DNA of 64,000 nt from a virus (Duplodnaviria; Caudoviricetes), in IMG/VR virus record IMGVR_UViG_2671180292_000001, positions 54,495-118,494 of that record. One strand, written 5' to 3'. How positions within the stretch are numbered: position 1 is the stretch's first letter; the number at the start of each line of letters is the position of its first letter. Under the pieces are notes generated by a model. That model ran no database searches, was not told where the DNA came from, and saw only the letters and a list, made by a program, of their open reading frames with translations. The position numbers were made by a program, and so were the translations under genes. Positions 27,940 to 53,645 of this stretch are shown piece by piece.

Positions 27940-28128
27940 TTACTCGATGAGGTTGTAGGACAGCAGGGACATGGTCACGGTGAGCGCGGCCCACCCGCCG
28001 AGGCCCACGCCGAGCGCGAGCAGTCCCCGGTCCCGCACGAGCAACAGGTCGAAGACGAGCCACGCCCACGCGCCGGTCACGAGAAGGAACGGCCCGCCGA
28101 ACACGGCGAGGAACATGCCGGTGCTCAT
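27940..28128 (-). CDS. Small two-TM membrane protein
   Basis: Hydrophobic 62-aa ORF coupled to terL. Confidence 0.55.
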   Translation of the reverse strand: MSTGMFLAVFGGPFLLVTGAWAWLVFDLLLVRDRGLLALGVGLGGWAALTVTMSLLSYNLIE

Positions 28129-29603
28129 CGCTTGCCGCCTCCGGTGACTGGCCGGCCGTACCGAGCAGCAGCGCTCCCTCGGCCCGTCCTCGCCTCAGTC
28201 GGCCGCGCCCGGGCGGGTGAACGGACGACGCTGGAACCGACGAGATCGCGAGCAGCAACGACGTACCTCATCGCGTCAGCACCGTGATCATTCTCCTTGA
28301 CCGGGGCCTCCTTCGGCGGCTTACCCGGCGAGGACTGCCACACGTACCCCGGGATCTCCTCGGCAGTGCAGCAGGGGCGTTTCGCCTCTTCCAGCTTCGG
28401 ATCACGCTCTACGAGGGCGTCGCGCATGATGAGGAGCCGAGGCCGGCGATCCCCCGCGACTCGGAAGCGGGCTTGCGCGGCTTGGATGCCGTCGGTGACG
28501 GTCTTCTTCGCTGGGGCGGTGGGGATGCCGAGGTGGCGTTCCAACGTGGCACGGTCTTCGGCGTCGTGGTCGCAGATCACCGCCCGAGGCCGCGGTTCGG
28601 CCCACACGAGGCGGCATTTACGGCAGTCGTGGCAGTCGTGGTCTGCGGCCTTAGACCCGCAGCACTGCTCGCAACGTCGCACGAGCCGGAGGATCTGCCG
28701 GGCGTGGTCTTCCACGAGGCGGCCGGAGTAGTAGATCTCCCGGTACAGGTAGAGCCTGCCGTCGCCGTCTTCGGCCCAGAACTGGCAGACGAACGGGTTG
28801 GTGTAGCCGAAGTCGACGGACCACCAGCGAGGCCAATCGTCGGGCGGCGTAAACCGGTCGACGAGGTGCACGACGGGGTCGAACTCCTCGTACACCAGCC
28901 CTTCGGCGGCGGCCCACAACCCGTCGCGCAGCCGAAGTCGACGCACACCGGTGAGAGCGTCGAGCTTGGCCATGTAGTCCCGGCCCGCTTCGGTGAGGGT
29001 GCCGTCCTCGTTGACGTAGGCGGGGTTGTCCCGGTGGCGGGAGTTCAGCATCACCATCGCGCCGCGGTCGGCACGCTGCTTGATCCAATGGGTGGGGTGG
29101 ACGGGGTTGCACGCGGCGATCTGCTGCTGCCACGACAGCACCTGATTTCGCAGTCGGGTACCGAGGGTTTCCCAGTCAGTCTCGGTCAGCTCGGTCGCCT
29201 CGTCGACGAACACCAGGTCGAACTCTGAGGACAGGACGCGCTCAGGGCGGTCCATGCCTCCGACGACGATGACGCTGCCGTTGGAGTACCGGTAGGAGGC
29301 GGCTTCCCGGGTGCTGCCGCCGTACCAGCGGACCAGCCCGGCGGCGAGTGCCTCGGCGGCGACCTTCCGCTCGAACGTCACCAGCGTGGTGGCGCCGAGC
29401 GAAACCGCGGTCTTCCGGACGATCAGGCACCGGATGCCCGGCGTGGACAGCGCGGCGAGGTGGACACGGAACAACGCCGCGAGCGATTTCCCGGTCCCAG
29501 CGGGACCGGCGATCACGACTTCGGATGATCTTTCGGTGAACAGGGCACGGGCCGCGCCACGCGGCTCGTACCGCACCACCAGGTGATCAGACGTGGTGGT
29601 CAT
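28125..29603 (-). CDS. terL: Terminase large subunit (PBSX-like)
   Basis: Walker A GPAGTGKS, VFVDEATE, CNP coupling motif, VDFGYTNP, DHGADAMRY. Confidence 0.95.
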   Translation of the reverse strand: MTTTSDHLVVRYEPRGAARALFTERSSEVVIAGPAGTGKSLAALFRVHLAALSTPGIRCLIVRKTAVSLGATTLVTFERKVAAEALAAGLVRWYGGSTREAASYRYSNGSVIVVGGMDRPERVLSSEFDLVFVDEATELTETDWETLGTRLRNQVLSWQQQIAACNPVHPTHWIKQRADRGAMVMLNSRHRDNPAYVNEDGTLTEAGRDYMAKLDALTGVRRLRLRDGLWAAAEGLVYEEFDPVVHLVDRFTPPDDWPRWWSVDFGYTNPFVCQFWAEDGDGRLYLYREIYYSGRLVEDHARQILRLVRRCEQCCGSKAADHDCHDCRKCRLVWAEPRPRAVICDHDAEDRATLERHLGIPTAPAKKTVTDGIQAAQARFRVAGDRRPRLLIMRDALVERDPKLEEAKRPCCTAEEIPGYVWQSSPGKPPKEAPVKENDHGADAMRYVVAARDLVGSSVVRSPARARPTEARTGRGSAAARYGRPVTGGGKR

Positions 29604-37011: not shown

Positions 37012-37284
37012 CGTCTCCTCCGGGTCGGTCGAGCGGTTACCGATGGTGGTCATCGGGCGGGTTTGATGGCGAGCCATGCCTTGCGGTGCCGGGGCGAGGC
37101 GTACTCCCCCGTCGCGGCCATCTCCTCGAGTTCGGCCTCGGTGCAGCCGAGCCGGTCGAGCGTCGCGGACTTCCCTGCCTCCCACTCCTGCTCGGTCAGC
37201 TCGTGGATCTCGATCTCGGCCATTGGTGCCTTCCTGGTTGCGTATTGATCGGGGGCCGCCCTGGGAGGGGTGGGGGTGGCGGGG

Positions 37285-37594: not shown

Positions 37595-37852
37595 CCTTTG
37601 GGTGGGCTTCCCGTCCCCGCCGTCCTCGAACAGGTCGAGCTGCCCGTCCACGTCCACCCAGGCCCGGGCCCGGCCGAACCGCACCCGAGGCGTGGTGAGC
37701 GTGATGCCACGTTTGGCTGCGCAGTCCCGGCCCAGTCGCATGGCGATGGATCGCGGGTCGGTGAGGCGCCGGTGGCAGTCCTCGCACTTGCCGACCGGGC
37801 ACGGCTCGACCGGCTCAGAGTCGAGCGGGACCAGGGCTAGCGGGGTGTCCAC
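37592..37852 (-). CDS. DUF6011-like Zn protein
   Basis: CEDCHRRLTDPRSIAMRLGRDC. Confidence 0.6.
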   Translation of the reverse strand: MDTPLALVPLDSEPVEPCPVGKCEDCHRRLTDPRSIAMRLGRDCAAKRGITLTTPRVRFGRARAWVDVDGQLDLFEDGGDGKPTQR

Positions 37853-48709: not shown

Positions 48710-49401
48710 GACGCCACCGCCTGTCCTCGTAGTGGGCGAGACGCTCGGCAAGAGCGTTGGCGCGGTCCCGCTCCAGCAGGTACAACGCCTGCGGCCCCTC
48801 CGAGCGCAACACGGCGTTGTCGCGCTGGAGCTGGTCGATCCGGGCCAGTAGATCCTCGTGGCTGGCCCGTGCAGGCGTGCTGGGCACGGTCACCTGCCGG
48901 GCCGGGGCCTTCTGCTCGCGGACACGCCGGGCCGTGGCCTCCACCTCTCGGCGCAGCTTCGCCACCTCGCACTCCAACTGGTCGACGCGGGTGTGCGCGT
49001 CAGCCAGTTCGGCGCGGAGCCGCTCCTCTCCGTCGTCGGCGGCCGGGACGGGGGTGAGGAGCATCGTCGGCTGCTCGTCATCCCCCGGCCAGTCGGGGAC
49101 GTCAAGCGGCTCGTGGAGGTCCCTCCGGGCACCTGCCCAGCGGGCGCGTAAACGGGTGAACAACGAACGCCTTCCTCTCTTCAGTGGGTGGGTTGGCCGG
49201 CAGCGGCCGAGTCGTCCGCTGCGGCGGCGAGCGCCTGGTCGAGGTCGTTGAGGACCTCGGCGCATAGGTCGCGGCACGCCGTCGCTGTGACGGTGCTGCC
49301 GTCAGTGGTGTGGATGCGCCGCTCGTACACCAGGCGGCGTTCGGCCCAGCGGGCGCGCATGGCCAGCAGCTGGTCCCGCAGCGTCAGCAGCTCGGTCTCG
49401 G

Positions 49402-49671
49402 TCATGCCGCGGCCCAGCCTCGGCGCATCCGACGGCGCCGCTCAGAGGCACGCTCGTCCTCGTTCAGGCCACCCCAAGTGCCGTACTTCTCCGGCCGCTG
49501 GAGGCTGTAGTCGATGCACTCCGCGCGCACCGGACACTGGGCGCAGATGGCCTTCGCCTTGCGCTCCCTGATGTCACGCTCTGCCTGGCGCTCGCCGTCG
49601 GGGCCGAAGAACAGCACCAGGTCTTCGCCTTGGCAGGCGGCTCGGTCTTGCCACGTCCAGGGGTTACGCAT
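49402..49671 (-). CDS. WhiB-family Fe-S transcription factor (WhiD/WhiB3-like)
   Basis: WQDRAAC...FFGPDGER...AKAICAQCPVRAEC...YGTWGGLNEDER. Confidence 0.92.
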   Translation of the reverse strand: MRNPWTWQDRAACQGEDLVLFFGPDGERQAERDIRERKAKAICAQCPVRAECIDYSLQRPEKYGTWGGLNEDERASERRRRMRRGWAAA

Positions 49672-49699
49672 CGGGGTTACCTCCTCTTGGTGGTGCGGA

Positions 49700-50130
49700 T
49701 GGGCAGGTGGAACAGCAACCCAGGCCGGGTAGTCGATGTGGGCTGCGGATAGGTCGGGTTGGCGCGTCGACTTGGCGCGGCACGGGGAGGGCCGTGACGG
49801 TGGTGCTCTGGGTCTCGGGACGACTCGTCGGACGTCGACGGGGTGGTTGGTGCAGCGGAAGGCTCGGCTCGTCGACGTGGCAGGGGACGGTTTGGTTTGT
49901 CGGCGTGGGTGGGCACGGCCGGGGGACGGTTCGGTTCGTCGGCGTGAAACGTGATCGGCTTGGGATGTCGCAACGGCGAGGAATGACCTGACTTGGTTCG
50001 TCGTGCAGGTCAGGGAAGGTTCGGCTTGACGTGTCGTAGAGGCTCGGGGCGGGCTGCCAAGGATCGGGTAGTCGGTTGGGTTGGGAAGGCCAGGCTCGTC
50101 GGTGTTGGGTGGGCTAGCCGTATCTGTCAC
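49700..50130 (-). repeat. Non-coding array of GAC-delimited units built from NNN(C/T)C pentamers (candidate guide ncRNA array)
   Basis: For example gac gaacc aagtc aggtc attcc tcgcc gttgc / gac acgtc aagcc gaacc ttccc tgacc tgcac. Units are mostly 27-39 nt, clustering near 28, 33 and 38. Strand inferred from the flanking genes. Confidence 0.75.
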
Positions 50131-50237
50131 GGCGTCGCAGACGGGCATCTGGGGGTCTCTTCTCGGGGTCGGAGTGATCAGCGGGGTTGTGATGTCCGGG
50201 CCGGGCCTCAGCCGCATGGGTAGGGGCCCGGCGCGTC

Positions 50238-51019
50238 TCAGCAGCGGGCGAATTCCAAGAGCTCGAACCGGCCGTCTGAGCGGCCGCGATCGGCGCCGAT
50301 GCCGATCTGCTCACCGGCTTGGAAGATCCTCGCCCACGCGGTCAGCGGCAGGAAGTCGTCCCGCACCCGCAGCCGAAACTCCAGCGTCGGCTGGTAGACG
50401 TACTCGACCCGGCTGATCGAGTTCCGGGGCCTTGAGGGGTCATGACGTGCTTGAACCGCTCTTCGACCCCGGTCGGCTCGGTCACGCCTAGCGGGATGAA
50501 GATCTCCTCGACGAACGCCCGCTCCACGATCGTGCCCATCAGGCCCTTCTTGAAGCCCGGCGGGAGTGGCCGGCCGACACCGGAGTCATGCGCTTTCTTG
50601 GTCTTTGTGTCTTTGCTGGCGGGGGGTTTGCCGTCCCAGTCGGACCCGGGGTACGCCGAGTTGGCCCATTCCTTGATCGCGGCTTTCATGCACCGCCCCT
50701 CGAACACCAGCTCTCCCGTGACGGGATGGCGCAGAAACCCGTTCACGCTGGGTGCGGCGTCGGTCTCCATCAGCGCGTCAGCGAGCTGATCGGTGCCGGG
50801 CTGCCCATCGGGGAACCGCGAGTGCAGGACCTGGTCGACCATCTCCTGCAGATCCCGGTCCCCGAGCTGCATCTTCGCTTTCAACCAGCTCTTGATCACC
50901 GACTTGTTCGACGGGATCCCCCCGACGAGCTTGTCGATACAGCGCAACCGCACACGGTAGGTCGCGAACTGGTCATCCAACTCGACGCCGAGCTGGGCAA
51001 ACACATCCAACGCGCTCAC
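50238..51019 (-). CDS. Cas7/RAMP-like protein with a one-base frameshift at ~50426-50429
   Basis: N-terminal YRVRLRCIDKLVGGIP, central GRCMKAAIKE. After adding one C the C-terminus reads RNSISRVEYV...LEFRL...GEQIGIGADRGRSDGRFEL (RAMP Gly-rich loop), stop at 50238. Confidence 0.7.
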
Positions 51020-51438
51020 GACGCCACCTCACCCTTCACGACCCGGGAAATCGGAGTGACCCGGCCGGCGCGGAGCGCGGCGTTCGCGGCCTCCAACTCC
51101 CTGACCCTGGCCTTGGCCTGGTCGAACCGCGTCTGCAGGTCCTCCACGTAGGCGGCGGTCGACGGCGGCATGTCCGGCGGCGGCAGTTCCTCCAGCGTGT
51201 TACGGGTCTGCCGGATGAGCTGGCGGGCCCGGCCGAACTCGGCGACGGTGAGCTGCAGCCGGGTCGCATGCTCGATCGCGCGGAACGCGTCGAACAGCTC
51301 GCGCGGGCTCCGGCCATCCAGGCTCTGGCCGACGATGGCCTCGATGTCGGCGCGTAGCGCGGGGTCTGTCTGGATCAACGCCACAGCGGCGTCGAACTCC
51401 TCTTGGCTGTACTCCTGCGCTCTGCGTCTTCTGGACAC
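51016..51438 (-). CDS. Hypothetical coiled-coil protein translationally coupled to the Cas7-like gene
   Basis: GTGA overlap; GGGAGG RBS. Confidence 0.6.
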   Translation of the reverse strand: MSRRRRAQEYSQEEFDAAVALIQTDPALRADIEAIVGQSLDGRSPRELFDAFRAIEHATRLQLTVAEFGRARQLIRQTRNTLEELPPPDMPPSTAAYVEDLQTRFDQAKARVRELEAANAALRAGRVTPISRVVKGEVAS

Positions 51439-51571
51439 CCGGGGTCCTCCCTTCACGGGTGACGGGGTAACGGGGATGAGGGGGTGAGTTGGGGCCACGG
51501 GCCCGCCCTGGACGGGCCAACGCACGAGACCATCGGGATCTCAAACCGGGCAGGCCCGTGGAGACTTGGGG

Positions 51572-52405
51572 TCAGGCGGCCAGCTGCGGGTACTCACGGA
51601 CCCGCAAGTCGGCAGGCCAGAACGACCAGTCGCCGCCCTTGCGGTCACCCTGAGCTGCGACAGAACGTCCGCCGACCACGACATCGGATGCCCAGACCGC
51701 GCCCATCTGCTTCACGAACACGGGCACGCCCGCGTCCTGGCACTGCTCGCGGATGGAACGCACCCACTCCAGATCCAGGGGCCGGGCGCCGCTGCCGCTC
51801 TCGCCGCCGACCACGATCCAGCTCAGCGACGGCTCGTCCCGCCGGTAGGGGTCGGCTCCGACCCAGTCGTCACGAAGAACGACCGGGCCGAGCAGCGGCT
51901 CGGCCGAGACCCAGCGCACGGCAGCCGGGGTTTCCAGCAGCGCGGGTATCCGGGCGTCGGCTTGCTCCTGGTTCTCTGCGGAGACGCCCATCCACAGGTT
52001 CGGCGGCCAGGGCAACTTGTGGGCGATCTTCGGTAGGCGCGCGGCGCGCTTGGTCAGCACCTGATAGGTGTGCTGCGGGGTGGCCTCGATCACCTCGAAC
52101 ACGCGGCGGACGAAGTCCAGCGGCACCCGAGCGTGCAGCAAGTCACTCATCGAGTTGACGAAGACCTTGCGCGGCCTGGCCCAGGTGAACGGCTCGTTCA
52201 GCGTGTCCGGGTGAAGGGTGAGGCCGAACCCGGGGCCGCTGGTGCGGGGGTCGCCGTCGTTCTGGTACTTCGCGCTGCCCATGCTCTTGAGGCGCTTCGC
52301 CATCGGGAGCGCGTAGCAGTGGTCGCAGCCAGCCGAGATGCGATCGCATCCGGTGGTGGGGTTCCAGGTCTGGTCCGTCCATTCGATGGAGGTCTTGGTG
52401 CTCAT
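51572..52405 (-). CDS. DUF5131 (phage Gp37/Gp68) radical-SAM-like protein
   Basis: TSIEWTDQTWNPTTGCDRISAGCDHCYA, FVNSMSDL, LTKR, SAEPLL, GGESG, FVKQMG. Confidence 0.92.
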   Translation of the reverse strand: MSTKTSIEWTDQTWNPTTGCDRISAGCDHCYALPMAKRLKSMGSAKYQNDGDPRTSGPGFGLTLHPDTLNEPFTWARPRKVFVNSMSDLLHARVPLDFVRRVFEVIEATPQHTYQVLTKRAARLPKIAHKLPWPPNLWMGVSAENQEQADARIPALLETPAAVRWVSAEPLLGPVVLRDDWVGADPYRRDEPSLSWIVVGGESGSGARPLDLEWVRSIREQCQDAGVPVFVKQMGAVWASDVVVGGRSVAAQGDRKGGDWSFWPADLRVREYPQLAA

Positions 52406-53645
52406 CGCTGTCATACCTCCGTGCCGGGGTGGTTGCTGGAACGTCGGGTCAGTGCGCGGTCGCGGCGGAGCCACCACGGAGCCACATGCCAGGCCCCGCA
52501 CCGGCAGGAGTGGATCCGGTAGAACAGATGCCGCAACACTCCGTTCCGGCGCCGGTGTGCGTATAGCGCGTTCCTGGCCTGTCTCCACGTCGGGTACGGG
52601 TCGAGATCCAGACGGGGGCAGTCCTCCATCTCGGCCCATTCCTCACGCGGCCACAACCGGTCGTGAAGGCCGGCCAGTTCCTCGTCCAGGGCGTCCAGGC
52701 GAGTGCTGTACGACTCGGGGTGACCAGCAGGCATCCGCACGGGCTCGTCCAGCAGTCCCTCATGCGGTAGACGGCGGGTCACAGCCCCTCCCAGCGGAGG
52801 TGGAAAACGGACACGGTCTCCCGACGGCGCGGCTGCTCCAGGTCGTCGCCAGGGTGGTAGTCCCAGCTGACGTAGGCGACCGGCCGTCCCCGCAGGTAGC
52901 CGACGTCGTCCACGGTGCCCTGGTCGACGATGCCGTTTGAGGCGCGGCTGACGCGGGATTGGGGGCGGAAAAGGAAACGCAGGTGGTCGATGTCCCCTTC
53001 TGCGATCGTCTCCACGAGGTCGGGCGAAGCATCCGTGGTGAGGGTCACGTCAGTCCTCCATTCGAGGTCGGAGCGTCTGATAGTTCGCGGCGGAGCCTGT
53101 TCAGCTCGGCCAGGTGCGACTCTGCGCGCTGGGAAGCAAGGTCGGCCTGCTGCTCGGCGCGGGCCGCCCGCTCGGACAGGCGCGTGTTCTCCCGCCGGGC
53201 CGCAGCCAGGCACGTTTGCAGGCCCTCGAGGTCCTCGCGGGCCGCGCGGAGGTGGACGTCGGTCACCTCACGCTCGATCTGCCGGCCCGAGAGGAGCCCG
53301 TAGGCGAACGCGAACCCACCGGTGAGCCAGGCGGCGAGCATCCAGTCGGGGCCGCCGATGACCCACCACAGGCCCATCAGGCAGATGATGACCGTGCAGG
53401 CGAGCGCGGTGGAGTACGGCTGCAGCACAGGCTTGCGGGTGGGGGTGCCGGGGGTCACCGTGCCCTCCCCCGCCCGCCGTGGCGGCCTCCGAGGGTGCAG
53501 TCCGGCACCCAGGCGCTGGTGTACGACACCCGACGAGCACGCCGCGGATACTGGCGGGCCCGGTGGCGGTGCCACACATGCACGCACGTGGATACCACCC
53601 CCACGCCAGCGACGATGAGCATGCCGTTGAGGAACTGGCCGGCGG

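What the first reader, a model, noticed from the sequence alone, without database searches (positions are those of the whole stretch)
49700..51438. Solo Cas7/RAMP-like gene plus a pentamer-periodic non-coding array: candidate phage RNA-guided system
Seen: 51019->50238 encodes a ~260-aa protein (after one frameshift) with RAMP-like hallmarks. These are an N-terminal strand YRVRLRCIDKLVGG, a central 'GRCMKAAIKE' helix resembling the Cas7 GSS.KG..R motif, and a terminal Gly-rich loop GIGADRGRSDGRF. I recognise no cas1/2/3/5/6/8 and no CRISPR repeats in the window. About 110 nt downstream, ending just before whiB, lies a ~430-nt array of GAC-delimited pentamer units. A coiled-coil gene (51016-51438) is translationally coupled upstream. 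Established: Cas7/RAMP subunits polymerise along guide RNA with a fixed nucleotide step. Inference: each pentamer is one subunit footprint (fixed CC anchor plus variable bases) and each GAC unit is one guide, giving a minimal programmable nucleic-acid-binding system for phage-phage competition or gene silencing. From memory this resembles reported phage RAMP plus short-period-repeat RNA ('VIPR'-type) loci, but those I recall are GG-rich, whereas this one is CC-rich on the sense strand and GAC-punctuated. That comparison needs verifying.
Basis: partly seen in the sequence, partly recalled or inferred. Interest (0 to 1): 0.95.

Follow-up and report, generated by a model that had tools for sequence, protein, structure and literature searches.

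The report
Prophage VIPR locus, antisense guide array
A prophage of a soil actinomycete carries a small Cas7-like protein gene, a partner gene and a 400-base array of five-base repeats, a further example of the VIPR RNA-guided DNA-silencing systems first described in 2026, unusual because the array's G-rich strand lies opposite its gene.

The parts
51016..51438 (-). vap-like accessory gene (140 aa, all-helical, C-terminal long helices). Its stop overlaps the RAMP start codon (GTGA).
   Evidence: ORF and RBS. Homologues sit in the same overlapping position in at least 8 related loci. AF2 model: four helices, pLDDT 74.7. No fold match at E<=0.001. No similarity to SUSP1 vap1. Pfam gives only weak DUF7310 below cut-off.
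50238..51019 (-). Vipr-like RAMP gene (~260 aa when read through). In this record it is split into a 225-aa ORF (50342-51019) and a C-terminal frame (50238-50420) by a 1-base deletion in the G run 50422-50425 (+ strand).
50197..50235 (.). GC-rich inverted repeat (11-nt arms, 17-nt loop) directly after the RAMP stop codon; a possible terminator in either direction.
   Evidence: Inverted repeat I4. Similar GC hairpins in L004, L006, L009, L011, L017 and L103. No T-tract terminator by the consensus scan.
50112..50138 (.). Conserved boundary element at the gene-proximal end of the array. On the + strand it reads GGCTA, a 5-bp stem (50117-50121 / 50129-50133) with a 7-nt loop, then GTCGC.
   Evidence: Coordinates. 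Present in 25 of 29 loci (three of them duplicates of the same genomes). The fifth stem pair covaries T-A 16, C-G 8, G-C 1, with no mismatch. Loop length varies from 4 to 16 nt, so it is not coding.
49733..50134 (.). Pentamer array: about 12 units delimited by GTCG (+ strand) / CGAC (- strand). Each unit holds 2-7 NNNGG pentamers on the + strand, which is antisense to the RAMP gene. The array is somewhat degenerate, with +1/-1 phase slips.
   Evidence: Family grammar. A close relative lacks 49882-49992 and has 9 extra bases after 50069.
49402..49671 (-). whiB gene (context, probably not part of the system). Its RBS follows the last array unit by about 50 nt on the same strand as the RAMP gene.
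   Evidence: PF02467 E 2.9e-23. The gene after the array differs between related loci.

Best explanation
This is a VIPR-type RNA-guided DNA-binding system of an actinobacterial prophage. It comprises an accessory helical protein (vap-like), a single-RRM Cas7-like RAMP (Vipr-like) and an adjacent array of guide units. By analogy with the SUSP1 system, RAMP protomers would polymerise along the array RNA, one per 5-nt repeat. They would clamp the fixed GG(Y) bases and present the two variable bases of each repeat. Those bases would pair with double-stranded DNA with one base skipped per repeat, silencing genes of competing mobile elements.

Shown here: the fold, the pentamer grammar, the linkage of gene and array across the family, and the lower substitution rate of the GG columns. 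Inferred: that the array is made into RNA, that the protein binds it, and the targeting rule and role.

I favour the G-rich strand (window + strand, antisense to the gene) as the guide, at about 60%. Read that way, the array reproduces the published polarity: GG followed by a C-biased base and two variable bases, variable repeats followed by a conserved 3' end (CWWG-TCG), and a conserved hairpin at the 3' end of the array. The copy in this record is either mis-assembled by one base or very recently inactivated. The confidence given (0.8) is for the class assignment, not for the strand.

For: Array. Lag-5 z = 5.0, and the top 6 of 635 windows all overlap the array. There are 683 phased GG pairs on the antisense strand against 21 on the sense strand in 14 arrays. 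In 117 boundary-phased units from 26 arrays, the position after GG is C 46%, T 15%, and the next two positions are near-even.

Linkage. A periodic C-skewed tract follows the gene in 13 of 13 genome loci. In 15 virus records (1.15 Mb), 13 of the 15 array-like regions abut the RAMP gene. The pairing is also seen in Mae-JY09 at 30% protein identity and in 27 of 42 distant viral loci.

Selection. Between close relatives, NN columns change in 76 of 729 cases and GG columns in 31 of 810; pairs are counted in both directions. Arrays differ by whole-unit gains and losses.

Known system. The VIPR papers describe a Vipr RAMP, GGY/NN vrRNAs with a 3' tail, vap genes, mostly proviral loci and one protomer per repeat. 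The C-terminal 59 columns (thumb to G-loop) align with SUSP1 Vipr at hhalign E 0.0012, probability 19%.
Against: There is no direct evidence that either strand gives a stable small RNA. Contigs from the RNA libraries cover the whole region but carry no strand information, and DNA carry-over cannot be excluded.

Sequence searches do not place the protein with SUSP1 Vipr. hhalign of the close family gives probability 0.2%. The profile search of PDB sequences gives 36pp_D only at E 1.9.

The G-rich strand is opposite to the gene, unlike SUSP1. This holds whether the array lies before or after the gene, which would fit co-transcription of the C-rich strand more simply.

The position after GG is a pyrimidine in only 61% of repeats.

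Units hold only about 5-7 repeats, against 9-16 in SUSP1.

The target search with the published 1-nt skip rule gave 8 hits against 9.8 for shuffled guides.

The gene is frameshifted in this record.
Confidence: 0.8

Rival explanations
1. Same class of system, but with a mirrored code. The guide is the C-rich strand (RCC/NN repeats, each unit starting with CGAC). It is co-transcribed with the vap-RAMP operon and the downstream gene, and the RAMP reads CC anchors instead of GG.
For: In every close relative the C-rich strand is the gene's strand. The same holds in 27 of the 29 distant loci that have an array, with arrays downstream, upstream or overlapping the gene ends. Several upstream arrays end 9-61 nt before the RAMP match, next to an RBS, which leaves little room for a promoter. 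On the sense strand the array is commonly followed within about 30-110 nt by an RBS and the start of another gene; this includes whiB here. In L116, where the array is flipped relative to the RAMP gene, its C strand is co-oriented with the abutting neighbour gene. In SUSP1 the RNA strand is the gene's strand. VIPR arrays with other fixed trinucleotides are in print. Earlier notes of this scan raised the same reading.
Against: The fixed bases would then be the exact complement of the only experimentally validated anchor. The biased base and the conserved unit end would also sit on the mirrored side, a coincidence on three counts. Three of 32 downstream arrays have a hairpin with a T-richer tail on the antisense strand at the gene-proximal end, and none has a sense-strand one after the array. 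This test is weak in high-GC DNA. The covarying hairpin fits both strands equally.
Confidence: 0.35
2. The locus in this prophage is a decaying remnant. The frameshift is real, the RAMP is not made, and the array, which is more degenerate than in relatives, is no longer under selection.
For: The record reads G4 where 4 of 4 related read sets read G5. Only 4 of 12 GTCG spacings in the window are of the 5n+3 form, against 157 of 417 in the family. Several units have phase slips.
Against: A single-base difference in a homopolymer run is the commonest assembly error. The rest of both frames is intact and 93% identical to P0001. The boundary hairpin is perfectly conserved.
Confidence: 0.25
3. The periodic tract acts at the DNA level. 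It would be a set of protein-binding iterons or a regulatory leader of the downstream gene (whiB here), not a guide RNA.
For: Repeated 23-34-nt motifs occur in the tract (families D1-D3). A palindrome TCAGCTGA lies at the far end of two related arrays. No RNA evidence exists.
Against: The downstream gene differs between loci, while the RAMP gene is the constant neighbour. Variable bases alternate with fixed GG at a 5-nt step, as in vrRNAs.
Confidence: 0.04
4. The tract is coding, an N-terminal extension of WhiB (ORF 49402-50217, 271 aa).
For: One sense frame is open through nearly the whole array here (578 of 580 nt) and in many relatives.
Against: The period is 5, not 3. The C-rich repeat leaves few places for stop codons. 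Close relatives differ by indels that are mostly not multiples of three. Hairpin loops vary by 1-2 nt. The downstream gene varies.
Confidence: 0.01

Closest known systems
VIPR systems (Vipr + vrRNA + vap). Reference: type II of Escherichia phage SUSP1, KT454805.2, vipr 28474-29061, vap1 28031-28471. Papers: bioRxiv 10.64898/2026.04.26.720920 and .720927; structure entry 36pp.
   Same: A lone small RAMP with G-loop and thumb. A two-gene operon with a small accessory gene. No CRISPR array or cas1. A (pro)viral setting. Flanking non-coding tracts of 5-nt repeats with a fixed GG and two variable bases. A conserved structured element at one end.
   Different: The G-rich strand is opposite to the gene; in SUSP1 it is the same strand. 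Units hold about 5-7 repeats and are separated only by GTC, rather than 9-16 repeats each with a ~40-nt tail. There is one hairpin per array. The pyrimidine after GG is only a bias (61%). The accessory gene lies upstream and is unrelated in sequence to vap1. The protein is about 65 residues longer, with no significant full-length sequence match.
'Staggered' vrRNA arrays and NNNGG-type repeats, mentioned for other VIPR types (legend of fig. S18 and methods of 10.64898/2026.04.26.720920).
   Same: [quoted passage not shown] NNNGG repeats are listed as an alternative consensus.
   Different: Only the legend and the methods text could be read; the figure and the supplementary tables could not. I therefore cannot tell whether this is the same architecture, whether GTC punctuation or antisense orientation is shown there, or whether this protein family is among the 670 Vipr proteins.
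Cas7/Csm3 backbone subunits of type III and type VII CRISPR-Cas effectors (e.g. 8yhd, 9g9i, 6nbt).
   Different: No CRISPR array, cas1 or partner subunits nearby. Sequence identity is 9-16%. The repeat step is 5 nt rather than 6 nt.
Non-canonical VIPR-like arrays (GAC/NN, CAC/NN, WGT/NN, TGH/NN) found by a genomic language model (bioRxiv 10.64898/2026.10.21.760802).
   Same: 5-nt period arrays next to Vipr-like folds; the fixed trinucleotide can differ from GGY.
   Different: Those motifs are not GG/CC based and are reported as runs of 10 repeats. The passages read mention neither orientation relative to the gene nor GTC punctuation.

Membership tests
VIPR | Sequence kinship with described Vipr proteins (PSI-BLAST family of X1U2U4; SUSP1 Vipr) | tested here: inconclusive
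   hhalign of the close family against SUSP1 Vipr gives probability 0.2%. The broad family (A4) gives 59 columns from thumb to G-loop, E 0.0012, probability 19%. The PDB sequence search returns 36pp_D at E 1.9 among 10 rows, 6 of them Csm4. X1U2U4 itself and the list of 2,664 proteins were not available.
VIPR | Adjacent non-coding tract with at least 4 tandem YNNGG (or NNNGG) repeats | tested here: met
   Ten chains of 3-5 phased GG on the + strand within 49692-50094. Family: 683 phased pairs. Position 1 is C 46% and T 15%. The repeats lie on the strand opposite to the gene.
VIPR | Fixed positions conserved, NN positions hypervariable | tested here: met
   Substitutions between close relatives: N2 13.5%, N3 7.4%, Y1 10.2%, G1 2.0%, G2 6.0%. 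NN 76 of 729 against GG 31 of 810, each pair counted in both directions.
VIPR | Conserved structured 3' tail after the repeat tract | tested here: inconclusive
   One hairpin per array, at the 3' end if the G strand is read, in 25 of 29 loci with a covarying pair. There are no tails between units, only C-W-W-G-TCG boundaries.
VIPR | Accessory vap gene in the operon | tested here: inconclusive
   A conserved, start/stop-overlapping 131-143-aa helical gene lies upstream. It shows no similarity to SUSP1 vap1.
VIPR | vrRNAs expressed and bound by Vipr | not testable with these tools
   Only unstranded contigs of two metatranscriptome runs cover the region.
VIPR | Guides match natural targets by the 1-nt skip rule | tested here: inconclusive
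   93 units were searched against 15 related virus records. Skip-1 gave 8 hits, against 9, 13 and 14 for other skips and 9.8 for shuffles. Power is low for 12-16 specified bases.
CRISPR-Cas (type I/III/VII effector) | CRISPR array and further cas genes (cas1, cas5, large subunit) at the locus | tested here: not met
   No Cas1 in the 118-kb record, with the control positive in 7 of 14 genomes. No CRISPR-like repeat among the 6 TRF rows. The neighbours are DUF5131, a helical protein and WhiB. Other cas families were not searched.

The most novel reading that the evidence does not exclude
In this whole clade (940 clusters at 50% identity; found in actinomycete prophages, a cyanophage and many uncultured viruses) the guide is the C-rich strand, co-transcribed with the operon. 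That would be a Vipr-like RAMP that clamps CC instead of GG and reads a mirrored RCC/NN code. It would show that the anchor chemistry of this ancient RNA-guided scaffold is freely re-wirable, and it would give a second, orthogonal programmable code. A second unexcluded form is that both strands are transcribed and the duplex is what is processed into unit-length guides.
Probability: 0.3. Interest if true: 0.75.

Novelty: new member of a known kind. Interest (0 to 1): 0.4.

Why it matters
The locus adds an actinobacterial prophage example to a class of RNA-guided DNA silencers that is less than a year old. It also documents a consistent departure from the studied type, across more than 50 loci. 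In this protein family the array's G-rich strand is opposite to the RAMP gene wherever the array sits, with two exceptions among the 29 distant loci that have an array. The guides are short GTC-punctuated units. One stranded small-RNA experiment on any lysogen with an intact copy would settle the question. The result would be either an antisense-encoded guide array or a mirrored C-based code, and each would be useful for understanding VIPR biogenesis and for engineering orthogonal guides. For this window alone the finding is ordinary: one more, possibly broken, copy.

Tried and rejected
Blank or uninformative searches
- DNA search of 49300-51800 against 50,697 phage records found no match.
- Tandem Repeats Finder on the array gave 0 rows.
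- Rfam on both strands at E<=1 gave 0 matches.
- The consensus promoter/terminator scan of 49300-51700 gave 0 and 0.

RNA evidence
Two metatranscriptome runs hold contigs over the whole region; one contig is 10,992 nt long. Contigs carry no strand, start or level, and the DNA run of the same study holds the region at ten-fold higher depth. This is not evidence of transcription.

Targets
I took 93 boundary-phased units with 6 or more repeats, drawn from 26 arrays, and searched them against 15 related virus records (2.1 Mb, both strands, arrays masked). The 1-nt skip rule gave 8 hits. Skips of 0, 2 and 3 gave 9, 13 and 14. Shuffled guides gave 9.8 per replicate. No target can be named. Units of 5 repeats and units with less than 60% GG were dropped before the count.

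Terminators as a strand test
Of 32 downstream arrays, 3 have an antisense-oriented hairpin with at least 4 T near the gene, 0 have a sense-oriented one after the array, and 1 has a sense-oriented one before it. This is too sparse to decide.

Other tests
- Wobble pairs in the conserved hairpin: none in 25 stems, so they give no strand information.
- Accessory protein: no fold match at E<=0.001 and no match to SUSP1 vap1.
- Coding reading of the array: rejected.
- A first version of the substitution test was circular for the GG columns. It was replaced.
- Family survey: 0 of 400 further genomes sampled from the phylum of G015 have a relative.
- No complex prediction was attempted.
Full report
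WHAT IS THERE

The window is the right-hand 64 kb of a 118,494-base IMG/VR provirus record. Around the finding all plausible genes lie on the - strand, in this order:
- a DUF5131 gene (51572-52420; PF07505, E 8.5e-89);
- a 140-aa gene (51016-51438);
- the gene in question (50238-51019);
- a 566-nt gap;
- whiB (49402-49671; PF02467, E 2.9e-23).

The gene in question has no Pfam or PHROG family at E<=1. It does have 221 relatives at E<=0.001 among 568 candidates. They are 237-260 aa long, are all called hypothetical, and the named ones come from Nonomuraea, Microbispora, Streptosporangium, Actinomadura and kin.

Aligned with these relatives, the 225-aa ORF and the downstream frame 50238-50420 join at PQGP|RNSISRVEY. 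All four read sets laid on the region carry one more G after 50425. One of them is a contig of run X1 that is otherwise identical over 50373-50534. The break is therefore a one-base deletion in a four-base run, either an assembly error or a very recent mutation.

THE PROTEIN

I folded the intact 93%-identical relative P0001 with an alignment of 97 family members: pLDDT 85.4, pTM 0.75.
- Foldseek against the PDB gave 128 matches at E<=0.001. The listed ones are backbone RAMPs of type III, VII and III-E effectors, best 5.4e-7.
- In the viral library the best matches include a siphovirus protein named as a Cas-associated RAMP, E 4.4e-10.

The RAMP call is sound.

By sequence the link to the founding Vipr of phage SUSP1 is faint.
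- The close family profile finds nothing.
- A broader profile of 101 representatives aligns 59 columns from the thumb to the G-loop at E 0.0012, probability 19%.
- A profile search of all PDB sequences returns ten rows at E<=10. Six are Csm4 G-loops, and one is the SUSP1 Vipr entry 36pp at E 1.9.

The family is large: 940 clusters at 50% identity at E<=0.001, 599 at 1e-10 and 120 at 1e-30. It is nevertheless rare in genomes: 0 of 400 further genomes sampled from the phylum of one host have it.

THE ARRAY

On the gene's strand the gap is C 253, G 128, A 117, T 68. Lag-5 autocorrelation is at z = 5.0, with no 3-nt signal. It is the most 5-periodic stretch of the window: the six best of 635 windows all overlap it.

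Read on the + strand it consists of NNNGG pentamers in short runs, interrupted by GTCG at 15 places.

The grammar is clearer in relatives. Units have the form TCG-N-(NNNGG)n-NNNG, so the distance between successive GTCG is most often 5n+3. Of 417 spacings of 18-80 nt in 26 arrays, the counts by residue mod 5 are:
- residue 3: 157
- residue 4: 111
- residue 0: 84
- residue 2: 36
- residue 1: 29

In the window only 4 of 12 spacings are 5n+3. Units mostly hold 5-7 pentamers.

In 117 units whose register is fixed by both boundaries, the base after GG is C 46%, T 15%, G 26%, A 13%. The next two positions are near-even. The pentamer before GTC is biased to C-W-W-G. These units were pre-selected for at least 60% GG, so the G frequencies themselves are not independent.

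Between close relatives, with the register taken from one sequence at a time, the two variable positions changed in 76 of 729 cases and the GG positions in 31 of 810. Each pair was counted in both directions, so the p-value from that call is inflated. Arrays also differ by whole-unit gains and losses. L018 and L022 differ in this way. A compost relative of this prophage lacks 49882-49992 and has 9 extra bases after 50069.

At the gene-proximal end lies a conserved element. On the gene's strand it reads GCGAC-GCCGY-loop-RCGGC-TAGCC (window 50112-50138). It is found in 25 of 29 loci; three of these are the same genomes seen in two collections. The fifth stem pair is T-A in 16, C-G in 8 and G-C in 1, with never a mismatch. 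Loops are 4-16 nt long.

LINKAGE

- In 13 of 13 genome loci of relatives, a C-skewed, 5-periodic tract of 300-1000 nt starts right after the gene.
- In 15 whole virus records (1.15 Mb, both strands) a strict density scan flagged 15 regions. Thirteen abut the RAMP gene, each on the strand opposite to it. Two lie elsewhere (G005, G007), and two records (G003, G014) fell below the threshold.
- Microcystis phage Mae-JY09, with a protein 30% identical (E 2e-20), has the same C-rich, CGAC-punctuated tract after the gene: lag-5 0.42.
- Of 43 loci of distant relatives in viral contigs I analysed 42; L128, a fragment, was dropped. Twenty-seven have arrays whose G-rich strand is opposite to the gene, lying downstream, upstream or across a gene end. 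Two have only G-rich tracts on the gene's strand. Thirteen have none within 2.5 kb.

The 131-143-aa upstream gene is conserved and overlaps the RAMP start in at least eight loci. It folds as four helices, has no fold match and has no similarity to SUSP1 vap1.

COMPARISON WITH WHAT IS KNOWN

VIPR systems are real and recent. I read the following:
- 10.64898/2026.04.26.720920: the abstract, all of Results, two methods sections and the supplementary legends;
- 10.64898/2026.04.26.720927: the abstract and one Results section;
- 10.64898/2026.10.21.760802: passages;
- 10.64898/2026.10.15.759431: the listing only, plus one blank word search.

These papers describe a lone ancestral RAMP, mostly in proviruses and viruses, with a vap gene. 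The vrRNAs have 9-16 YNNGG repeats followed by a structured 3' tail. One protomer binds per repeat, the NN bases read DNA with one base skipped, and there are seven types with 'staggered' and ribozyme-interspersed arrays.

The locus here meets the fold, repeat and context criteria (see the membership table).

I located the SUSP1 locus in KT454805.2. There the repeat chains of 12, 6 and 5 units are on the same strand as vipr and vap1. Here, and in the whole family, they are on the opposite strand.

The words antisense (in this sense), opposite, convergent and Actino do not occur in the main text of the first paper. The words Actino, antisense, opposite strand and staggered do not occur in the third paper. 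Figures and supplements were not visible. I therefore cannot say whether this architecture is already drawn there, for example as 'staggered arrays'.

Earlier notes of this scan describe the same family and the same open question on other DNA.

WHICH STRAND IS THE GUIDE

For the G-rich strand:
- It reproduces the validated motif and polarity: GG, then a pyrimidine-biased base, then NN.
- Each unit has variable repeats 5' and a conserved end 3'.
- The hairpin sits at the 3' end of the array, like a tail.

If the C-rich strand were the RNA, all three would have to mirror the published system by coincidence.

For the C-rich strand:
- Its co-orientation with the RAMP gene is nearly invariant, whether the array is before or after the gene.
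- Upstream arrays run up to the gene's RBS.
- On that strand the array is usually followed closely by the RBS of another gene, as with whiB here.
- In L116 the flipped array is co-oriented with the neighbour it abuts.

The sense strand is thus very probably transcribed as part of an operon. An antisense guide would need a promoter firing against it.

Terminator-like hairpins with T-rich tails are too rare in this high-GC DNA to decide: 3 antisense against 0 to 1 sense among 32 downstream arrays. The covarying stem fits both strands.

I put the G strand at about 60%, the C strand at about 35%, and no guide RNA at about 5%.

FUNCTION

The mechanism is inferred from SUSP1: filament assembly on the RNA, gapped pairing with double-stranded DNA, and silencing of rival mobile elements.

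My own target search was blank. I used 93 units against 15 related virus records and compared the published skip rule with three other skips and with shuffled guides. The test had little power, because each unit specifies only 12-16 bases.

VERDICT

The class assignment is well supported. The kind is known, so this is a further member, possibly carrying a one-base defect. The family-wide antisense layout and the short GTC-punctuated units are the only points of wider interest.

Noticed in passing
window 49402-50217 (- strand): One sense frame is open through the whole array and runs in frame into whiB (271-aa ORF). Most related arrays also have one almost fully open sense frame. This is probably a by-product of the C-rich repeat, which leaves few places for stop codons.
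   Followed up: partly
G005:C1:37873-38372 (- strand) and G007:C1:99201-99550 (+ strand): Two further period-5 GG-dense regions in related virus records lie far from the RAMP gene. They may be orphan arrays.
   Followed up: no
L016 (Microcystis phage Mae-JY09, PP395641.1 37174-38976): A cultured cyanophage carries a 248-aa relative (30% identity), an overlapping upstream 179-aa gene and a 517-nt CGAC-punctuated array that runs to the end of the linear record. It could serve as an experimental model for this clade.
   Followed up: partly
L009 3746-4675 (Thermoactinospora rubra): Here the RAMP ORF is 309 aa with a different N-terminal extension of about 70 aa (protein P0071). The usual separate upstream gene was not seen.
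   Followed up: no
L110 2357-2492 and 3223-4980: A distant relative (GC 58%) has arrays on both sides of the RAMP gene. It has runs of near-identical duplicated units, some boundaries that form CGTCG...CGACG hairpins, and T-rich tracts before CGAC.
   Followed up: no
L004 and L014, far end of the array: Both share CAGCTCAGG(C/T)GTCAGCTGAAGGCATGG, which contains the palindrome TCAGCTGA, just after a terminator of a convergent 78-80-aa gene. GAAGGCATG recurs at the far end of at least seven arrays.
   Followed up: no
window 51572-52420 (- strand): A DUF5131 (phage Gp37/Gp68-like) gene lies directly upstream of the operon. PF07505 E 8.5e-89; phrog_2045.
   Followed up: no
window 37263-37284 (+) and 37664-37685 (-): These are the only other chains of five phased GG in the window. 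They are short and isolated, and probably chance.
   Followed up: no
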